A DNA stretch of 64,000 bases from Patescibacteria group bacterium. GTDB lineage: Bacteria > Patescibacteriota > Minisyncoccia > Phycocordibacterales > Phycocordibacteraceae. How positions within the stretch are numbered: the first letter of the stretch is position 1; every line of letters starts with the position of its first letter. Both the position numbers and the translations under genes were made by a program. The notes under the pieces were generated by a model, which made no database searches, was not told the origin of the DNA, and saw nothing but the letters and a program-made list of their open reading frames with translations. Location of the stretch: NCBI GenBank assembly GCA_019744845.1, contig JAIETW010000001.1, positions 282,176 through 346,175 on the forward strand, given 5' to 3'. Shown here piece after piece: positions 33,795-58,245 of this stretch.

Positions 33795-33854
33795 ACGTCT
33801 ATGTGGTTATGTACTAAGTATATACCTGATGCTATAGTGCTCCTGGAATTATTA

Positions 33855-33946
33855 GTATCCAGAGCGCGACGAGGGATCTGGCCCTTTGACTCGCCGGCAA
33901 CCTGTAAAAATACAAGGTGCCTCCAGCCCCGTATGGGGGACGATAC
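33855..33946 (+). promoter_or_regulatory. SAM-I (S-box) riboswitch in the metK leader
   Basis: GUAUCCAGAGCGCGACGAGGGAUCUGGCCCUUUGACUCGCCGGCAACC...GGUGCCUCCAGC...GAUAC matches the S-box consensus (AUCaAGAG.GG.GGAGGGA.UGGCCC.AUGA..CCGGCAACC...GGUGC.A.UCCAGC). A P1 helix GUAUC/GAUAC closes it. Confidence 0.65.
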
Positions 33947-33956
33947 CTACTATCTA

Positions 33957-40700: not shown

Positions 40701-40851
40701 TTGGAGACCCTATTAAACTCCGTTAGAACCCATTTTGCAAAGGAGCCCTGATTACTCGCGCCTCGCAGACTCGGCGCTCGCCCCGACCCCGGTCCGCACT
40801 GAAATCCTTTTCTTTTTTCGCGGGGGGAATCCAAAAATCCGGGCTCGGAGC
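40701..40851. repeat. Repeat X, inverted copy (attR-like: X arm + CTCCA + cPGI 3' end)
   Basis: 150 bp, the near-perfect reverse complement of 45021..45161. It ends in gggtCTCCA, abutting the cPGI stop. Confidence 0.85.
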
Positions 40852-44943: not shown

Positions 44944-45020
44944 CTAACGGTCTGCAACTAGTTAGCCGATACAGCAAGAGATAATCTAGTTAAAAAATTC
45001 CTCGCCCTGCCGCTCCTTGC

Positions 45021-45310
45021 CGGATTTTTGGATTCCCCCCGCGAAAAAAGAAAAGGATTTCAGTGCGGACCGGGGTCGGGGCGAGCGCCGAGTCTGCGAG
45101 GCGCGAGTAATCAGGGCTCCTTTGCAAAATGGGTTCTAACGGAGTTTAATAGGGTCTCCAAAATCGAAATCAGCCCAGTTTTTCCCGAATGCATTTTTGC
45201 GCAGTGCAATTCCCGCCAAGGGAGTTCAGGGATTCCGCGCGCTTCGCGCGCGTGGAGGGAGGTTCAGAAATACAGAATCCGAAAATTTTCTGGAGGGAGG
45301 ATTTTTTATT
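45021..45310. repeat. Repeat X+Y contiguous (attP-like: X arm, CTCCA at 45156-45160, Y arm)
   Basis: 45021-45161 is the reverse complement of 40701-40851. 45156-45307 is the reverse complement of 48683-48825, about 95% identical with one small indel. Confidence 0.85.
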
Positions 45311-45393: not shown

Positions 45394-46683
45394 TTACTTC
45401 AGAAGATCATCCAGTTCACTGGATAGTAAAGCAGATTTATTGAGCAAAATCTCCTCTTTCTGATTCAGATTCTCAGCAGTCATTCTAATGACTTTCGTAC
45501 GGATTATGTTGCCTAAAATAATGTTCCCGGTTTTATCTAGATATTTCCTTGTTTTCCTTGCAAACAAAGTCGCATACTGTCGCAATTTCTCTTCAGAAGC
45601 AGGATGGGAGCTTGAGCCGTTGGCGCCAAACTCTATTTTATTATCAAGCGATATATCTCGCTCAGTTGGCAAGTCTCCGTCGCGGAAGTGGATCCAATAC
45701 TCACTAATTGCATACTGAACATGTACGGGTTCCCCTTCTTCGGTTGAGTAGTCGTAACTAAAGAAAAACGTATCCGTACGGAAATCCTGAAATACGCGAA
45801 TGTGTTCAAGTGAACGAACCTTCCTAATTCCATAACTATCCAGAAGGCGAAGATAACTCTCGCGCCAGTTTGTAAGCCAATTTGTAACGAAGGTCTGATT
45901 TACGAACAGCGGGCTTAGATCCTGCTTAAGGTTTTCGTCGCTCACTTTATTCATCTGAAGAGTGAGCTTGTCGAACAGTGCGCGCGGGTCTTTCACGTCA
46001 ATGCCTTTCGCAATCAGATAATCAAAATCAGGAACAACTTTCTTAGTCATATACCAGAGCAAATCATAGATATCTCTTCCCTTTTCTTCATATGTAGCCT
46101 GTCCAACCCCCCTTGTTCCGCGTAGGAAAATTGCAGCAATTTTACTAGCCATCAGTGAAGACATGTTGTAGGTGAGAATGACGAATGACATTTGGTCGCG
46201 GTTAATCGGCCTACGCTCCGTCACAGTCTTTGGGGCAACAAAATGATTTAGGTCTATTTTTACGTGAATCTGTTTTGAAGGATGTCCCGAGCTCAAATCG
46301 TCTCCAACAATAAACCTGAGCAACAACCCTCTACCGGTAGTTACTTTGATGGTAAGAAAGTCGCTACCGGCGCCATATGTATTAGCAAAATACTCTTCCA
46401 CCTCACTCTTTAGACTTTCCAAGAACTTTTCTGTGATTGAATGACCTACCTCAAAATCCAAATCAACAGACATACGATCTAGCCCGTGGATGATGCGAAG
46501 AGCGGAACCGCCGTACATGACCCATTTGCTGTATTCGGGATGGTGATAGACAAAGTCGAGAACAAAATACTGAAGCTCTTCTTTAAGCGCATTTCGACGT
46601 GTTTCCGCATCCAAGCCACCGTAAGCGGAAAGTTCTTCAAGTTTTCTTTTCAAGATTGTTACGATCTGTTCACTCATAGACAT
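45394..46683 (-). CDS. AbiEii/AbiGii-family nucleotidyltransferase toxin (type IV TA / abortive infection)
   Basis: VMYGGSALRIIHGLDRMSVDLDFEV matches the AbiEii GG(S/T)AL...R.S.DLDF signature. At 429 aa it is longer than typical. Overlaps the upstream antitoxin gene by 14 nt. Confidence 0.75.
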   Translation of the reverse strand: MSMSEQIVTILKRKLEELSAYGGLDAETRRNALKEELQYFVLDFVYHHPEYSKWVMYGGSALRIIHGLDRMSVDLDFEVGHSITEKFLESLKSEVEEYFANTYGAGSDFLTIKVTTGRGLLLRFIVGDDLSSGHPSKQIHVKIDLNHFVAPKTVTERRPINRDQMSFVILTYNMSSLMASKIAAIFLRGTRGVGQATYEEKGRDIYDLLWYMTKKVVPDFDYLIAKGIDVKDPRALFDKLTLQMNKVSDENLKQDLSPLFVNQTFVTNWLTNWRESYLRLLDSYGIRKVRSLEHIRVFQDFRTDTFFFSYDYSTEEGEPVHVQYAISEYWIHFRDGDLPTERDISLDNKIEFGANGSSSHPASEEKLRQYATLFARKTRKYLDKTGNIILGNIIRTKVIRMTAENLNQKEEILLNKSALLSSELDDLLK

Positions 46684-47287
46684 ACGCTTTTATCATGTCA
46701 TTAAATTTCTGCTGTTCACTAATTTCCATTTCTTCAAAATCTATTCTAAGTTCGTTAATTATTTTTGGTATTTCATTACGACGAACACCACGAAACTGAC
46801 GTGTCCTGAAATATAGCAAGTCAAACAATGCTTTCGAGGGAGAGGCGATAAAGAAATTAAACTTCCCTTCCATAAGTGAGTAGTCAGAAAAGAGTTCTTT
46901 TTTAATTGACTGATACGAAAATGTCCCAGCTTTTGTTTCGTAATCTCTGGTCACCTTAAGTGAGACTGACGTAACTGAGCGAATAACCTCTGTAGTGAGA
47001 TTGTAATACTGAAGTGCCGTCCACGAGCTTATGTACGATGGCTTCCGAAGGATGTTCGCAAGGTAGTAAAGATACGAAATTTCACTTTTGTTTTTTTCAA
47101 AGAAGTCTCCCGAAATATATAGGCCATTTTTAAGCGCAAGAATTTCCCTCCGCTTAAGAAAACGGCTTACATAGGTGTTAATTGTGCTCTTTTTGAGGCC
47201 TAGCTGATCAGCAAGCTGAAAAACTGTATTTTTGCTGAAATGAGGTAGAGCCTTGAGCTGTTCTATTAGATTGCTCTTGCTTTTCAT
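46670..47287 (-). CDS. AbiEi-like antitoxin/transcriptional regulator (wHTH)
   Basis: About 200 aa, N-terminal winged-HTH-like region, immediately upstream of and overlapping AbiEii. Canonical AbiE operon order. Confidence 0.6.
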   Translation of the reverse strand: MKSKSNLIEQLKALPHFSKNTVFQLADQLGLKKSTINTYVSRFLKRREILALKNGLYISGDFFEKNKSEISYLYYLANILRKPSYISSWTALQYYNLTTEVIRSVTSVSLKVTRDYETKAGTFSYQSIKKELFSDYSLMEGKFNFFIASPSKALFDLLYFRTRQFRGVRRNEIPKIINELRIDFEEMEISEQQKFNDMIKAYVYE

Positions 47288-47328: not shown

Positions 47329-48900
47329 TTGGCTATGAAATACTTCCTATACGCCCGCAAAAGCACCGACACAGAGGACAAACAGGTTCTCTCTATTGAG
47401 GCGCAACTAGCCGAATTGCGCTCCCTCGCCCGTCGTGATGGGCTAGAAATCGCTGAGGAGTTTGTAGAAAAGCGGAGCGCGAAATCGCTTGGTCGTCCCG
47501 TGTTCGGCGAAATGATGACGCGCATCCAAAACGGTGAGGCACAAGGAATACTCTGTTGGAAGATAGATCGCCTCGCACGTAATCCTGTAGACGGTGGACA
47601 GATTCAGTGGCTACTTCAACAAGGCGTGATTCGCCATATCCAAACGCACGACCGCTCCCACTTTCCGAACGACAATGTGCTGATGATGTCGGTAGAACTC
47701 GGCATGGCGAACGAATATATACGCCAACTCTCCGCAAACACCGCACGGGGATTACGACAGAAAGCGCGAACGGGCGTGTACCCCGGTCTCGCCCCTATCG
47801 GCTACCTAAACGACCCACGCACGAAAACTATCCGCACTCACAAAAAGAACTCTGTACTTGTGCGTGAAATGTTTGAGCGGTACGCGAACGGAAACACAAC
47901 ACTAAACGATCTCGCGCTCTTTCTTGAAAACTCTGGGGTGATTTCTAAGGGCAGTAAGCGCGTAAATATTTCGCGTGTCTCGTTTGTTTTGCAGAACCCT
48001 TTTTACTACGGCCATTTCCGCTACGCGGGCGAAGTATATGAGGGTAAGCACGAGCCGATCATCACGAAAGCGTTATACGACAAAGCGAATACGGTACTGC
48101 GAAGCCGTGGCCGAACTCCGGCCTCTAAAGCCGTTCCTAGCCCCTATTGTGGCCTCCTACGCTGTGGCGAGTGCGGTATGGGCATCACGGCCGAAGTGAA
48201 GGAAAAGCACCAAAAGAACGGCAATGTCCACCACTACACCTACTACCGTTGTACCCGTAAATCTAAAACTCAAAAGTGCAAAGAAGCGCCGATACGAAGC
48301 GAACTTCTTGATTCGCAACTAACGGCACTTCTAGGCGAGTACACGATGCCTGCCGAGTGGGTGTCCCCTCTAAACGAAATGCTCAACCGCGAGGCGACTA
48401 TGGCCTCACAGACCGCATCAGGGGCGATTTTTGAACTACGAGCAAAAGCGGAAGATATATCGCGCCAACTTTCTCGCCTCACGGATTTGTATGTGGCGGA
48501 AGATTTGGAGCGCGATGACTATCTTGCTCGCCGAAAGTCCCTCGTGTCCGACAAGCGGACGCTAGACGAGAAAATCGCCAAACTTGAACAAGCCCCTTCG
48601 GCTTGGGTTGAACCTGTTAGGGAATGGATTTCGGACGCTTCGCGCCTGGGTGAAATCGCAAAGTCCGAAGACCCGCATTCCAAAAAATCCTCCCTCCAGA
48701 AAATTTTCGGACTGAACCTCTCCCTCCACGCGCGCGAAGCGCGCGGAATCCCTGAACTCCCTTGGCGGGAATTGCACTGCGCAAAAATGCATTCGGGAAA
48801 AACTGGGCTGATTTCGATTTTGGAGCCGATGTCCGGGATTGAACCGGAGACCTCGTCCTTCGCTTACACTCTCGCTTCTTGCATGCGCGCGAAAGGCTAG
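47329..48900 (+). CDS. Large serine recombinase (integrase); annotated 3' end uncertain
   Basis: YARKSTDTEDKQ catalytic Ser motif, resolvase domain, recombinase domain, zinc ribbon CGLLRCGECG...YYRC and coiled-coil. The last ~85 codons run through repeat Y and the tRNA. Confidence 0.8.
   Translation: MAMKYFLYARKSTDTEDKQVLSIEAQLAELRSLARRDGLEIAEEFVEKRSAKSLGRPVFGEMMTRIQNGEAQGILCWKIDRLARNPVDGGQIQWLLQQGVIRHIQTHDRSHFPNDNVLMMSVELGMANEYIRQLSANTARGLRQKARTGVYPGLAPIGYLNDPRTKTIRTHKKNSVLVREMFERYANGNTTLNDLALFLENSGVISKGSKRVNISRVSFVLQNPFYYGHFRYAGEVYEGKHEPIITKALYDKANTVLRSRGRTPASKAVPSPYCGLLRCGECGMGITAEVKEKHQKNGNVHHYTYYRCTRKSKTQKCKEAPIRSELLDSQLTALLGEYTMPAEWVSPLNEMLNREATMASQTASGAIFELRAKAEDISRQLSRLTDLYVAEDLERDDYLARRKSLVSDKRTLDEKIAKLEQAPSAWVEPVREWISDASRLGEIAKSEDPHSKKSSLQKIFGLNLSLHAREARGIPELPWRELHCAKMHSGKTGLISILEPMSGIEPETSSFAYTLASCMRAKG
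48683..48825. repeat. Repeat Y, inverted copy (attL-like: tRNA-Thr 3' end + CTCCA + Y arm)
   Basis: Reverse complement of 45156-45307. The CTCCA core is nt 72-76 of tRNA-Thr(GGT). Confidence 0.85.
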
Positions 48901-49074
48901 ACTGTATCTTTATCCTAACGGATACCCTTGTCAGTCGTTCGGGCGATATCTCGCCACGGTCTTGTCTCGCATGAGATATTAACCGTTATTCGGGATTCAC
49001 CTACACATTGCTGCATAAGTGGGCAGGGTCTGCGACCCACCATGGACGCGCTCTACCAACTGAGCTACATCGGC
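48821..49074 (-). tRNA. tRNA-Thr (anticodon GGT) split by a 178-nt group-I-like intron in the anticodon loop; CCA encoded
   Basis: 5' exon GCCGATGTAGCTCAGTTGGTAGAGCGCGTCC-ATGGT; 3' exon AA-GGACG-AGGTC-TCCGGTTCAATCCCGGA-CATCGGC-T-CCA. The exons are near-identical to E. coli tRNA-Thr(GGU). The anticodon stem halves CGTCC/GGACG lie 185 nt apart. Confidence 0.65.
48861..49038 (-). ncRNA. Group-I-like intron in tRNA-Thr(GGT), inserted after anticodon nt 36
   Basis: The 5' exon ends in U. The intron ends in G (GTGTAAGCG|AA). P7-like pairing CGACTGACAAGG...AGATACAGTCTAGCC resembles Tetrahymena CAGACUAAAUG...AGAUAUAGUCGGACC. Confidence 0.5.
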
Positions 49075-53261: not shown

Positions 53262-54186
53262 ACTTGGTAGTTATCCCTTGACAACAGGTAACCCCCGGAA
53301 CTAGAATTGGAGTATATGAAGTACACCATTATCCAGTTCCAGAAAGATTATCCGACCGACGATGCCTGCCTTGAACGCCTCTTTAGGCAGAAGTTCCCCA
53401 ATACCGAGGGATACTACAGAATCAAGAATCGCATGTGCTACTCCCACAAGACCACCCGCCACCAGATACATCCCCTCGCAGGCACTATCTTTGAGAAGAC
53501 CTCAACTCCTCTCACGCTCTGGTTCCATGCAATATATCTCTTCTCTACTTCTAAGAATGGAGTATCTGCCAAAGAGCTTCAGCGTCAGCTTGGCGTCACA
53601 TACAAGACTGCATGGCGCATGGCGCATCAGATTCGGAAGCTCATGGAGCAGGGCTCAGATCCGCTTTCAGGGGTGGTGGAAGTAGATGAGACGTACTTCG
53701 GGAAGCGAGGAGACAATGAGAGAAAATTCAAGAACAAGGCGGCGCTTATCGGAGCCGTGGAGCGCAAGGGACGTGTACGGGCAGTCAAAGCTCCTAATCG
53801 TAGAGCAGAAATAGTCTTACCCTTCGTAAAGGAGAACGTGGAGCGCGGCGCTCACGTGATGACGGATGAATACAGCGCCTATGGCAGGCTTACAGGTTCA
53901 GCGTATGGATACGCCCACACGTCCGTAAAGCACGGCAAGAAACACTACACCTGGGGCGAGAGCCACACGAATACCATTGAGGGCTTCTGGGGCCAGTTTA
54001 AGCGCTCTGTTAGGGGGACGTACTCTTTCGTTTCTTCGCAGCACCTGCAGGCTTACGTGAACGAGTTCGCGTTCCGCTATAATTACCGGTCTTCTTCGGT
54101 TTTCGACCAACTACTGGCGAGGATATAGCTTTGGAGAGGAGGCGTTCGAAGTCGTCCTTTTGGGTCATGGAAGGAATTCTACCATT
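53262..54186. mobile_element. Tentative IS1595-family element boundaries (imperfect 12-bp IRs TGGTAGTTATCC / GGAATTCTACCA)
   Basis: Left IR tggtagttatcc at ~53265. Right gga​attctacca at ~54173, reverse complement tggtagaattcc (9/12 match). Boundaries not certain. Confidence 0.3.
53307..54128 (+). CDS. IS1595-family transposase (ISXO2-like DDE domain)
   Basis: N-terminal zinc region, VEVDETYFGKRG, HVMTDEYSAYGRL, NTIEGFWGQFKR. Characteristic ISXO2-like domain. Confidence 0.85.
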   Translation: MEYMKYTIIQFQKDYPTDDACLERLFRQKFPNTEGYYRIKNRMCYSHKTTRHQIHPLAGTIFEKTSTPLTLWFHAIYLFSTSKNGVSAKELQRQLGVTYKTAWRMAHQIRKLMEQGSDPLSGVVEVDETYFGKRGDNERKFKNKAALIGAVERKGRVRAVKAPNRRAEIVLPFVKENVERGAHVMTDEYSAYGRLTGSAYGYAHTSVKHGKKHYTWGESHTNTIEGFWGQFKRSVRGTYSFVSSQHLQAYVNEFAFRYNYRSSSVFDQLLARI

Positions 54187-57747: not shown

Positions 57748-57806
57748 AGTTGAATGGTATCACTCGTGAACGAAGAAAAGCGCCACTGGCGCTTTTCTAT
57801 ATCTTG

Positions 57807-58123
57807 TTGCGGGGGCCGGAATCGAACCGGCGTCTGGAGGTTCTTTTACACCTTCTGTTTCCAGAAGGAATGGACTATCCCATAATCCTGACGGATTCTC
57901 CCATTATAGTCTCTGAACCTTCCCCGAATGTACTCGAGGCTTGGCTGCTGATTGCCGAATCTTTTTGTTTTTCAAACCGTCGCATCCATCCTTTCGGATC
58001 ACGCTGTGGTACAAAAAGCTCTAACGGTGTTCCAGCAATTTAGAGAGTTTTTCCACTACCCGTTGCCGGATAGGGTCACGTTTACCACATGAGCCTCCCG
58101 AGGTACCTCTCCTCTACCCCGCG
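57807..58123 (-). tRNA. Initiator tRNA-fMet (anticodon CAT) split by a 246-nt group-I-like intron after anticodon nt 36
   Basis: 5' exon CGCGGGGTAGAGGAGAGGTACCTCGGGAGG-CTCAT, nearly identical to E. coli tRNA-fMet including the C1xA72 mismatch and A11:U24. 3' exon AA-CCTCC-AGAC-GCCGGTTCGATTCCGGC-CCCCGCA-A. Confidence 0.7.
57843..58088 (-). ncRNA. Group-I-like intron in tRNA-fMet
   Basis: The 5' exon ends in U. The intron ends in G (GGTGTAAAAG|AA). GGTTCAGAGACTATAATGGG...GGATAGTCCATTCC resembles the Tetrahymena J6/7-P7 segment AGUUCACAGACUAAAUG...GAUAUAGUCGGACC. Confidence 0.55.
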
Positions 58124-58245
58124 ATATATTGCTTCGTTCACCGAAGCCCCAGGCAAATTACCATTTTAGACACTAAATGGCAACAAAATTATGAAAATGA
58201 TCATTCATAACCTCGTATGTATTTTATGATACTATTTGTGTAGCT

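What the first reader, a model, noticed from the sequence alone, without database searches (positions are those of the whole stretch)
48821..49074. tRNA-Thr(GGT) interrupted by a compact 178-nt group-I-like intron at the same anticodon-loop position, and serving as the integration site
The exons reconstruct a canonical tRNA-Thr(GGU). The insert lies after anticodon nt 36, the same position as in the tRNA-fMet. It ends in G and has a P7-like GACTG.../...CAGTC pairing with flanks similar to the fMet intron (GTGTAA..G|AA). At 178 nt it would be an unusually small group I intron. The tRNA 3' end is also the attL core of the adjacent integrative element. The integrase ORF, as drawn, reads through both repeat Y and this tRNA.
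Basis: partly seen in the sequence, partly recalled or inferred. Interest (0 to 1): 0.65.

Follow-up and report, generated by a model that had tools for sequence, protein, structure and literature searches.

The report
Compact group I intron in tRNA-Thr
The threonine tRNA gene of this Patescibacteria (CPR) genome is split by a real but very small (178-nt) group I intron of a type already described in this phylum. The same tRNA's 3' end is also the docking site of a mobile element that encodes a serine recombinase.

Summary
On the minus strand, window 49074-49039 and 48860-48821 are the two exons of tRNA-Thr(GGU). A 178-nt insert (49038-48861) lies exactly between nt 36 and 37.

Syntenic relatives carry the uninterrupted gene with the junction CCATGGT|AAGGACG.

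The insert belongs to a large, conserved intron family. I recovered 140 members, 169-254 nt long (median 194), almost all in Patescibacteria tRNA-Thr(GGU) at 36/37. A covariance model built without the window sequence matches the insert end to end (152 bits).

Covariation supports P2, P3, P5, P6, P8, P9 and P9.0. U-1 and omega-G are invariant. P1 covaries in a phage copy.

Rfam RF00028 and ARAGORN miss or miscall it. Nakagawa et al. 2026 and Williams 2020 reported the same behaviour for "divergent" Thr(GGU) 36/37 introns, so this is a new member of a known kind.

178 nt is small for group I introns but ordinary for this family.

The integration-site claim also holds. A large serine recombinase ORF reads antisense through the 3' exon. 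A TTGGAG core at the tRNA 3' end recurs at 40701. Homologous recombinases sit the same way in other genomes.

Self-splicing of this family has not been tested.

The parts
49039..49074 (-). 5' exon of tRNA-Thr(GGU), nt 1-36, ending in anticodon GGU. U36 is the -1 residue of the 5' splice site.
   Evidence: Identical to the intron-less orthologue in L004.
48861..49038 (-). 178-nt group I intron of the Patescibacteria tRNA-Thr(GGU) 36/37 family.
   Evidence: Model R1, built without this sequence: 151.9 bits, E~1e-53, model positions 1-189 of 189. Covariation.
49022..49038 (-). P1 region. Intron nt 1-13 form the hairpin extension GGGUC-GCA-GACCC. Nt 15-17 (GCC) are the internal guide that pairs with exon GGU, with U-1 opposite G15.
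   Evidence: GCCC is invariant in A2. P1 covaries in phage copy L140 intron 1: exon GCU with guide GGC.
48998..49021 (-). P2 hairpin, intron nt 18-41, with GCAA (GNRA) loop.
   Evidence: All 8 tested pairs show compensatory changes.
48992..48994 (-). P3 5' strand, CCC, intron nt 45-47.
   Evidence: Pairs with 48925-48927. 3 of 3 pairs show double changes and 100% of cells are paired.
48942..48986 (-). P4-P5-P6 domain, intron nt 53-97. P4 is ACGGUU/GACCGU. P5 is UCUC/GAGA. P6 is GGCGA-GAUA-UCGCC. J4/5 and J5/4 are A-rich.
   Evidence: P4 is invariant apart from U.G to C-G. P5 and P6 covary.
48925..48936 (-). P7 5' strand GACUG (nt 103-107), J7/3 ACAA, and P3 3' strand GGG (nt 112-114).
   Evidence: CGAACGACUGACAA is invariant in the 25 aligned tRNA-Thr introns of A2. 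P3 covariation.
48911..48924 (-). P8 hairpin UAUCC-GUUA-GGAUA, nt 115-128.
   Evidence: 4 of 4 tested pairs are compensatory.
48900..48910 (-). J8/7 AAGAUA and P7 3' strand CAGUC, nt 129-139.
   Evidence: Invariant. Same form as the Rfam group I consensus AAGAUAUAGUC seen in the tRNA(CAU) intron alignment.
48861..48897 (-). P9.0 5' half (GC, nt 142-143), P9 hairpin (nt 144-170), GUGUAA, P9.0 3' half (GC, nt 176-177) and omega-G (nt 178).
   Evidence: Both P9.0 pairs covary: GC/GC, AU/AU, GU/AC, AC/GU. The terminal G is present in 139 of 139 other members.
48821..48860 (-). 3' exon of tRNA-Thr(GGU), nt 37-76 including the encoded CCA.
47329..48900 (+). Large serine recombinase ORF (523 aa). Its last 26 codons are antisense to the tRNA 3' exon and 40 nt of the intron, and its stop codon lies inside the intron.
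   Evidence: Pfam Resolvase + Recombinase + Zn_ribbon_recom. Homology to other recombinases runs to about residue 493. Same layout in L208 and L209.
48820..48825 (+). Core TTGGAG at the tRNA 3' end. This is the tRNA-proximal junction of the element (arm b | tRNA).
40701..40706 (+). Direct copy of the core TTGGAG at the distal junction (host flank | arm a). The GPI gene just to its left is syntenic with relatives.
45156..45161 (-). Inverted copy of the core inside the element. It is flanked by perfect copies of arm b (106 nt) and arm a (142 nt), giving an attP-like b|a junction.

Best explanation
Window 49038-48861 (minus strand) is a compact group I intron that interrupts the genome's syntenic tRNA-Thr(GGU) gene between anticodon nt 36 and nt 37. 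It belongs to the 'divergent' tRNA-Thr(GGU) 36/37 intron family of Patescibacteria.

**Mechanism (inferred from group I chemistry, not shown here).**
- The anticodon GGU pairs with the internal guide GCC (intron nt 15-17) to form P1, with the U36.G15 wobble marking the 5' splice site.
- An exogenous guanosine bound in P7 (GACUG/CAGUC) attacks after U36.
- The terminal G178, positioned by the 2-bp P9.0, then occupies the same pocket.
- The freed 3' OH of U36 attacks after G178. This joins CCAUGGU to AAGGACG and yields mature tRNA-Thr. The exon-exon anticodon stem probably takes the place of a long P10.

**Architecture.** The ribozyme is minimal: P1 with a short extension, P2 with a GNRA loop, a 3-bp P3, short P4-P5-P6, P7, P8, P9 and P9.0. 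It has no peripheral domains and no ORF.

**Separate feature.** The tRNA's 3' end (core TTGGAG, which is the reverse complement of the tRNA's 3'-terminal CTCCA plus the next base) is the attachment site of an ~8.1-kb element carrying a large serine recombinase and an AbiE toxin-antitoxin pair. The intron and the element appear to be independent tenants of one gene.
For: **Exons and boundaries**
- Exons and boundaries were read directly and confirmed by intron-less orthologues at the same locus.
- The exons carry compensatory changes relative to L004 (T-stem U-A versus C-G). The gene is therefore under selection.

**Family membership**
- 25 homologues came from species-representative genomes, mostly Patescibacteria MAGs.
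- 115 more came from metagenomes, all in tRNA-Thr(GGU) at 36/37.
- Model R1, built without the window, gives 151.9 bits end to end.

**Structure**
- RNAalifold independently predicts P2 and P4-P9, with 24 of 37 pairs compensatory.
- With P3 and P9.0 added, 95.2% of cells are paired against 26-43% for slid partners. 29 of 42 pairs show double changes, and 0 of 500 shuffles reach this.
- U-1 and omega-G are invariant.
- P1 guide covariation is seen in a phage copy: GCU/GGC against GGU/GCC.
- The window fold has z = -4.2.

**Literature**
- Thr(GGU) 36/37 introns in Patescibacteria are missed by RF00028 and called Arg(GCG) 34/35 by ARAGORN (PMC13011429, Table 1). reproduce exactly this behaviour.
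- tFind's gpI_bact_tRNA model is described in bioRxiv 10.1101/2020.01.27.920355.

**Integration site**
-.
Against: - No experiment shows splicing for this family. Nakagawa et al. tested only the Asn and Asp 35/36 introns.
- Rfam RF00028 gives no hit even at E<=10.
- P3 is only 3 bp and the exon part of P1 only 3 bp. Unaided self-splicing could therefore be weak or depend on a protein or high Mg.
- P4 and P7 never vary, so covariation says nothing about them.
- Only 64 kb of the genome could be examined. A second, intact tRNA-Thr(GGU) elsewhere is not excluded.
Confidence: 0.88

Rival explanations
1. The insert has a group I fold but does not self-splice. Removal would need a host or element-encoded protein cofactor, or be so inefficient that the intron acts mainly as a brake on tRNA-Thr(GGU) supply.
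For: The architecture is very reduced: a 3-bp P3, a 3-bp exon-guide pairing and no peripheral domains. No splicing assay exists for this family (PMC13011429).
Against: All catalytic-core junctions are invariant in the aligned members, and P9.0 and the GNRA L2 are conserved. This is what an autonomous ribozyme would show. Other small Patescibacteria tRNA introns self-splice in vitro (PMC13011429). No maturase-like ORF lies in or next to the intron.
Confidence: 0.1
2. The gene is a disrupted tRNA pseudogene. The insert would be an inert remnant, with ACY codons read by another tRNA-Thr copy elsewhere in the genome.
For: ARAGORN and Rfam's tRNA model do not call the gene. The rest of the genome could not be searched.
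Against: The locus is the syntenic orthologue of the tRNA-Thr(GGU) of relatives. The exons are intact, with compensatory substitutions. The same precise 36/37 interruption is conserved, with covariation, in 140 loci. Nakagawa et al. report that intron-bearing and intron-less copies of the same anticodon rarely coexist in one genome.
Confidence: 0.02
3. The recombinase ORF overlaps the tRNA by chance, and the tRNA 3' end is not an attachment site. The repeats would reflect assembly artefacts or unrelated duplications.
For: - The shared core is only 6 nt.
- The long repeats are inverted, not direct.
- An internal attP-like junction is not expected in a simple prophage-like insertion.
- The sequence is a metagenome-assembled genome.
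Against: - Arm b and its inverted copy differ by an 8-nt indel beyond the perfect 106 nt, so they are real paralogues and not assembler copies.
- The three junctions combine exactly as host|a, b|a and b|tRNA.
- Homologous recombinases (62% identity in L208) read through the same tRNA in other genomes, and L008 keeps a remnant.
- The 8.1 kb is absent from relatives.
Confidence: 0.12

Closest known systems
Patescibacteria tRNA-Thr(GGU) 36/37 'divergent group I introns' (Nakagawa et al. 2026, mSystems, PMC13011429; found with tFind's gpI_bact_tRNA model, Williams 2020, bioRxiv 10.1101/2020.01.27.920355)
   Same: Same host phylum, same tRNA and anticodon, and same 36/37 site with U-1 and omega-G. 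RF00028 misses it and ARAGORN miscalls it as Arg(GCG) 34/35. It has no homing endonuclease ORF.
   Different: - This is a different genome.
- At 178 nt it lies below the 184-894 nt range that paper gives for 333 tRNA introns of complete genomes.
- I could not align it directly with their three sequences, because they are not in the held supplement.
Azoarcus sp. BH72 pre-tRNA-Ile(CAU) intron (IC3, 205 nt; Reinhold-Hurek & Shub 1992). The length and subgroup are from my own knowledge.
   Same: It is a small bacterial group I intron at 36/37 of a tRNA anticodon loop. P1 is formed with the anticodon. It has a GNRA L2, P9.0 and omega-G, and no ORF.
   Different: The P4-P6 and J6/7 sequences belong to a different subgroup: ACGGUU/GACCGU and CGAAC here, against the IC3 consensus seen in the window's own tRNA(CAU) intron. 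P3 is shorter. The intron is 27 nt shorter. Model R1 does not cross-hit the IC3-like introns of the window or of L019.
Phage group I introns in structural and other protein genes (subgroup IA type, e.g. the three introns of Staphylococcus phage Twort orf142; from my own knowledge)
   Same: The core CGAACGACUGACAA...AUACAGUCUA is identical. R1 scores reach 140.8 bits on IMG/VR contigs. One major head protein gene carries three copies. Nakagawa et al. place the Thr introns with the IA clade.
   Different: The host gene here is a tRNA, not a protein gene. There are no P7.1/P7.2 insertions between P3' and P8 in the window intron.
Integrative elements that target the 3' end of tRNA genes
   Same: The recombinase gene lies next to the tRNA 3' end. 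A core repeat overlaps the tRNA 3' terminus and leaves the tRNA intact. Cargo includes a defence-type toxin-antitoxin pair (AbiEii).
   Different: - The recombinase is a large serine recombinase, not the usual tyrosine integrase.
- The core is only 6 nt.
- The recombinase ORF runs across the core, so its stop codon comes from the flank.
- The element holds an internal inverted attP-like junction.

Membership tests
Group I intron | U at -1 forming a U.G wobble with an internal guide sequence in P1 | tested here: met
   U36 precedes the intron. The guide GCC (nt 15-17) is invariant in A2. In phage copy L140 intron 1 the exon GCU pairs with guide GGC, which is a covariation.
Group I intron | Guanosine (omega-G) as the last intron nucleotide | tested here: met
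   G at 48861. G is present in 139 of 139 other members.
Group I intron | Core helices P3-P9 in canonical order, with the P3/P7 pseudoknot | tested here: met
   RNAalifold and pair counts: 95.2% of cells paired and 29 of 42 pairs with double changes. All three P3 pairs are compensatory. P4 and P7 are invariant, so covariation is uninformative for them.
Group I intron | P9.0 pairing that positions omega-G | tested here: met
   Both pairs covary: GC/GC, AU/AU, GU/AC, AC/GU.
Group I intron | Match to the Rfam RF00028 covariance model | tested here: not met
   No hit at the gathering score or at E<=10. Family members L027, L032 and L065 also give no hit. This is a known false negative for this intron type (PMC13011429).
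Group I intron | Guanosine-dependent self-splicing that yields ligated exons | not testable with these tools
   Needs an in-vitro splicing assay or RNA-seq. It has not been reported for the Thr family.
Patescibacteria tRNA-Thr(GGU) 36/37 intron family | Host gene is tRNA-Thr(GGU), with the insertion between nt 36 and 37 | tested here: met
Patescibacteria tRNA-Thr(GGU) 36/37 intron family | Sequence and structure homology to other members | tested here: met
   R1, built from 24 other members, gives 151.9 bits, E~1e-53, over the full length. The nearest member is 83% identical.
Patescibacteria tRNA-Thr(GGU) 36/37 intron family | Host is a member of Patescibacteria | tested here: met
   The GlmS of the window is 100% identical to an NCBI 'Patescibacteria group bacterium' protein. 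Relatives are Parcubacteria and Minisyncoccia.
Patescibacteria tRNA-Thr(GGU) 36/37 intron family | Direct alignment with the three published examples (GCA_001029635.1, GCA_016700375.1, GCA_030583745.1) | not tested
   Their sequences are not in the held part of the supplement. The diagnostic tool behaviour is the same: RF00028 misses it and ARAGORN calls Arg(GCG) 34/35.
Group I subgroup IA | Extra helices P7.1/P7.2 between P3' and P8 (from my own knowledge of the Michel-Westhof classes) | tested here: not met
   P3' (nt 112-114) is followed directly by P8 (nt 115-128). Nakagawa et al. nevertheless group the Thr introns with IA by covariance model and tree. I leave the subgroup open.
tRNA-targeting integrative element (large serine recombinase) | Recombinase gene at the element end next to the tRNA | tested here: met
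   Pfam Resolvase, Recombinase and Zn_ribbon_recom. The ORF ends inside the intron.
tRNA-targeting integrative element (large serine recombinase) | The same core at both element ends, with one copy overlapping the tRNA 3' end | tested here: met
   TTGGAG at 40701-40706 and 48820-48825. Six nt alone is weak evidence. It is strengthened by the b|a junction at 45156-45161, which has perfect 106-nt and 142-nt arms.
tRNA-targeting integrative element (large serine recombinase) | Empty site in relatives | tested here: inconclusive
   Relatives lack the 8.1 kb but hold other genes between GPI and the tRNA. No exact empty junction was seen.
tRNA-targeting integrative element (large serine recombinase) | Recurrence of the same recombinase-tRNA arrangement in other genomes | tested here: met
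   In L208 (547 aa, 62% identity) and L209 the ORF reads through the tRNA-Thr 3' exon and stops 33 nt inside the intron. There are remnants in L008, L174, L177 and L229.

The most novel reading that the evidence does not exclude
This family may hold the smallest natural self-splicing group I ribozymes: 169-181 nt at the short end, with 116 of 140 members below the 205 nt of the Azoarcus intron. It may also form one mobile pool shared between CPR tRNA-Thr(GGU) genes and phage structural genes, since up to three copies occur in one major head protein gene. Current Rfam models largely miss it.

The patchy presence among syntenic relatives would then reflect ongoing gain and loss without a homing endonuclease. 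The intron is present in the window and in the relative at 74% GlmS identity. It is absent at 89%, 76% and 75%.
Probability: 0.4. Interest if true: 0.5.

Novelty: new member of a known kind. Interest (0 to 1): 0.3.

Why it matters
**For annotation.** Standard tools (ARAGORN, the Rfam tRNA and RF00028 models) either miss this tRNA-Thr(GGU) or would call it tRNA-Arg(GCG). The genome would then look as if it lacked an essential tRNA, which affects completeness estimates for CPR genomes.

**For RNA biology.** The family is a naturally minimised group I ribozyme with strong comparative support. It could be a convenient small model, but the type is already in the literature, so this instance adds little that is new.

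**Side observations.** The same intron family occurs in phage capsid and tail genes. A serine-recombinase element repeatedly targets the same tRNA. Both are useful leads, not discoveries.

Tried and rejected
- **Rfam search of the region at E<=10:** no hit. This is not evidence against a group I intron, because the whole family is invisible to RF00028.
- **Alternative P3.** I first considered ACCCU (nt 9-13) pairing with AGGGU. I rejected it because covariation supports CCC (nt 45-47) with GGG (nt 112-114), and nt 1-13 form the P1 extension.
- **Exon-based genome scan.** It returned many false positives from tandem tRNA genes in Bacillus, Acidobacteria and others. I filtered them out by splicing in silico and running ARAGORN. 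L019 (Magnetovibrio) has a different, IC3-like intron in tRNA-Thr(GGU) and was excluded.
- **Arm b as native flank.** I first read arm b (48682-48820) as native tRNA flank because L008 has it. I rejected this once tblastn showed that it encodes the conserved recombinase C-terminus.
- **Cargo ORFs.** PHROGs and Pfam searches of the element's small ORFs gave nothing useful.
- **Published Thr intron sequences.** The supplement of PMC13011429 is truncated as held, so they could not be retrieved.
- **Origin of the internal inverted attP-like junction.** I could not derive a simple series of events that produces it.
Full report
**1. What is there**

The feature lies on the minus strand.
- Window 49074-49039 reads GCCGATGTAGCTCAGTTGGTAGAGCGCGTCCATGGT, which is tRNA positions 1-36 and ends in the anticodon GGU.
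- Window 48860-48821 reads AAGGACGAGGTCTCCGGTTCAATCCCGGACATCGGCTCCA, which is positions 37-76 with an encoded CCA.
- Between them are 178 nt (49038-48861) that start GGGTCGCAG and end GTGTAAGCG.

Default ARAGORN and the Rfam tRNA model do not call the gene. The in-silico spliced sequence is called tRNA-Thr(ggt). With its intron option, ARAGORN calls the locus tRNA-Arg(gcg) with a 178-nt intron at 34/35. That placement has neither U at -1 nor G at the intron end.

**2. Organism and orthologues**

The adjacent GlmS is 100% identical to a protein of an NCBI 'Patescibacteria group bacterium' on a 554-kb contig. Its relatives are Parcubacteria and Minisyncoccia. I used GlmS as an anchor to fetch syntenic loci.

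| GlmS identity | Locus | tRNA-Thr(GGU) upstream of glmS |
|---|---|---|
| 89% | L003, L004 | uninterrupted |
| 76% | L008, L271 | uninterrupted |
| 75% | L006, L007 | uninterrupted |
| 74% | L273 | 179-nt intron, ~80% identical to the window's |

- The uninterrupted genes read ...CCATGGT|AAGGACG.... This fixes the insertion point. The bases on either side differ, so the boundary cannot slide.
- The L273 intron differs from the window's by compensatory changes in P1, P2, P5, P9 and P9.0.
- Presence is therefore patchy among relatives.
- The window exons differ from L004 by a compensatory T-stem change and a better-paired acceptor stem. The gene is under selection.

**3. The intron family**

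After filtering out tandem tRNA genes it gave 24 homologous introns in tRNA-Thr(GGU) at 36/37, 176-210 nt long. Most come from Patescibacteria MAGs: Kaiserbacteria, Saccharibacteria, Parcubacteria, Komeilibacteria and Paceibacterota.

A core-based scan of metagenomes (CGAACGACTGACAA...ATACAGTCTA) also reached its limit. Of its 120 loci, 115 showed both tRNA-Thr(GGU) exons.

Across 140 members (132 distinct):
- Length is 169-254 nt, median 194.
- 13 are shorter than the window's 178 nt, and 116 are shorter than 205 nt.
- All end in G.

A covariance model built from the 24 genome members, without the window sequence, matches window 48861-49038 end to end at 151.9 bits, E~1e-53. Nothing else in the window matches, including the tRNA(CAU) intron.

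**4. Structure**

RNAalifold on 25 sequences independently predicts P2, P4, P5, P6, P7, P8 and P9. 24 of its 37 pairs are kept through changes on both sides.

I added the pseudoknotted P3 (CCC nt 45-47 with GGG nt 112-114) and P9.0 (GC nt 142-143 with GC nt 176-177) and counted pairs.
- 95.2% of cells are standard pairs, against 26-43% when partners are slid by 1-3 columns.
- 29 of 42 pairs show double changes.
- None of 500 shuffles reaches any measure.
- P3 and P9.0 are fully supported. P4 and P7 never vary, so covariation says nothing about them.

The order of elements is canonical for group I:
- P1: exon GGU with guide GCC, U36.G15 wobble, plus a short hairpin extension.
- P2 with a GNRA loop.
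- P3.
- J3/4 GAAUA.
- P4 ACGGUU/GACCGU, with A-rich J4/5 and J5/4.
- P5 and P6.
- J6/7 CGAAC.
- P7 GACUG/CAGUC.
- J7/3 ACAA and P3'.
- P8.
- J8/7 AAGAUA and P7'.
- P9.0 and P9.
- GUGUAA, P9.0' and omega-G.

J8/7-P7' (AAGAUACAGUC) has the same form as the Rfam consensus AAGAUAUAGUC seen in the window's other intron. The anticodon is fixed, so P1 cannot covary within the tRNA family. In a phage copy, however, the exon ends GCU and the guide is GGC. The window sequence alone folds with z = -4.2.

**5. What is already known**

Nakagawa et al. 2026 (PMC13011429) list tRNA-Thr(GGU) genes with 36/37 introns in three complete Patescibacteria genomes. They report that:
- RF00028 does not detect them.
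- ARAGORN calls two of the three Arg(GCG) 34/35.
- tFind's gpI_bact_tRNA model (Williams 2020, bioRxiv 10.1101/2020.01.27.920355) finds them.
- They sit on a long branch with the IA clade.
- tRNA introns in complete genomes range from 184 to 894 nt.
- Splicing assays were done only for the Asn and Asp 35/36 introns.

My reproduce the diagnostic behaviour. The window intron is therefore a new member of a published kind. I could not align it directly with their three sequences, because the held supplement is cut.

**6. Size**

178 nt is small for group I introns in general and lies just under the published 184-nt minimum. Within this family it is ordinary.

**7. Relatives outside tRNA**

The same core pattern hit 20 IMG/VR contigs, none of them in a tRNA.
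- Model R1 scores these copies up to 140.8 bits, and several contigs have more than one copy.
- In L140, three copies (190, 190 and 184 nt) interrupt one gene. Removing them at U|...G| boundaries gives a continuous 447-aa ORF that matches a PHROG major head protein.
- Other hosts look like tape-measure or lysozyme-type proteins and another capsid protein.
- RF00028 gives only one weak hit (21.6 bits) among these copies.

**8. The integration-site claim**

ORF 47329-48900 (+) is a large serine recombinase, with Resolvase, Recombinase and Zn_ribbon_recom domains. Its homology to other recombinases runs to about residue 493, so the 140 nt next to the tRNA ('arm b') encode its true C-terminus.

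The hexamer TTGGAG occurs at three junctions:

| Site | Orientation | Junction |
|---|---|---|
| 40701-40706 | direct | host flank \| arm a |
| 45156-45161 | inverted | arm b \| arm a, attP-like |
| 48820-48825 | direct | arm b \| tRNA (TGGAG is the reverse complement of the tRNA's CTCCA end) |

- The arms are perfect repeats of 142 nt and 106 nt.
- Beyond the 106 nt, the two b copies differ by an 8-nt indel, so they are real paralogues and not assembler copies.
- The 8.1 kb between the direct cores is absent from relatives, while the GPI gene on its left is syntenic with them.
- In L208 a 547-aa homologue (62% identity), and in L209 a partial one, also read antisense through the tRNA-Thr 3' exon and stop 33 nt inside the intron. 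L008 (intron-less), L174, L177 and L229 keep remnants.

The tRNA 3' end is therefore a recurrent target of this recombinase family. The crossover lies about 40 nt from the intron. I see no evidence that intron and element depend on each other.

The internal inverted attP-like junction remains unexplained.

**9. Verdict**

The mechanism (guanosine-initiated self-splicing) is inferred from the fold and from group I chemistry, not shown. The kind is already described, so interest is modest.

Noticed in passing
window 57843-58088 (-), within tRNA(CAU) 57790-58140: A second intron-bearing tRNA. A 246-nt intron matches RF00028 (71 bits) and lies after CAU, at 36/37. The tRNA has initiator features (C1xA72 mismatch, A11-U24). 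Published fMet introns are at 33/34, and 36/37 is the classical site for tRNA-Ile2(CAU). Its 3' end (P9-GUGUAA-P9.0-G) has the same layout as the Thr intron, but model R1 does not cross-hit it.
   Followed up: partly
window 40701-40842 / 45020-45161 and 45156-45261 / 48720-48825: Two abutting pairs of perfect inverted repeats (142 and 106 nt) meet at an inverted TTGGAG core. This places an attP-like b|a junction inside the serine-recombinase element and leaves two potentially invertible segments: small unknown ORFs in one, AbiE plus the recombinase in the other. The origin is unexplained. It could be recombinase-driven inversion, or less likely a contig problem.
   Followed up: partly
L140 6280-6469, 6746-6935, 7569-7752 (IMG/VR contig 3300020570_000137); also L137, L141, L143, L149, L133, L135, L136, L146: The same compact intron family (R1 up to 140.8 bits) interrupts phage protein genes. 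Three copies sit in one major head protein gene, and others sit in tape-measure or lysozyme-like genes. RF00028 largely misses them. L140 intron 1 shows P1 covariation (exon GCU, guide GGC).
   Followed up: partly
L273 818-996 (-), Logan SRR31802128: A relative at 74% GlmS identity has the orthologous intron (179 nt) in the same tRNA-Thr-glmS synteny. Closer relatives (89%, 76%, 75%) lack it. This is patchy gain or loss without a homing endonuclease gene.
   Followed up: partly
L008 9738-9914: An intron-less relative keeps a remnant of the recombinase 3' end (63% aa, 79-90% nt identity) abutting its tRNA-Thr(GGU), next to a copper-resistance gene cluster. The same site seems to have been used there too.
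   Followed up: no
L001 (ends inside the tRNA T-arm) and L002 (ends 5 nt before the intron): Independent Logan assemblies of the same strain break inside this tRNA gene. That would fit repeats or population variants at the locus (element or intron presence or absence).
   Followed up: no
L019 6324-6516 (+), Magnetovibrio sp. MAG: tRNA-Thr(GGU) of an alphaproteobacterium carries a 193-nt intron at the same 36/37 site, but of the ordinary IC3-like type (AAAUUCGGGG...GUAGAGACUAGACGG). It is unrelated to the Patescibacteria family.
   Followed up: no
window 33852-33949 (+): SAM (S-box) riboswitch, 56 bits. By synteny with L003/L004 it probably lies upstream of the S-adenosylmethionine synthetase gene.
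   Followed up: no
window 45394-47287 (-) and 53307-54128 (+): An AbiEii toxin gene with an upstream 205-aa partner lies inside the element. An IS1595-family transposase lies a few kb beyond glmS.
   Followed up: no
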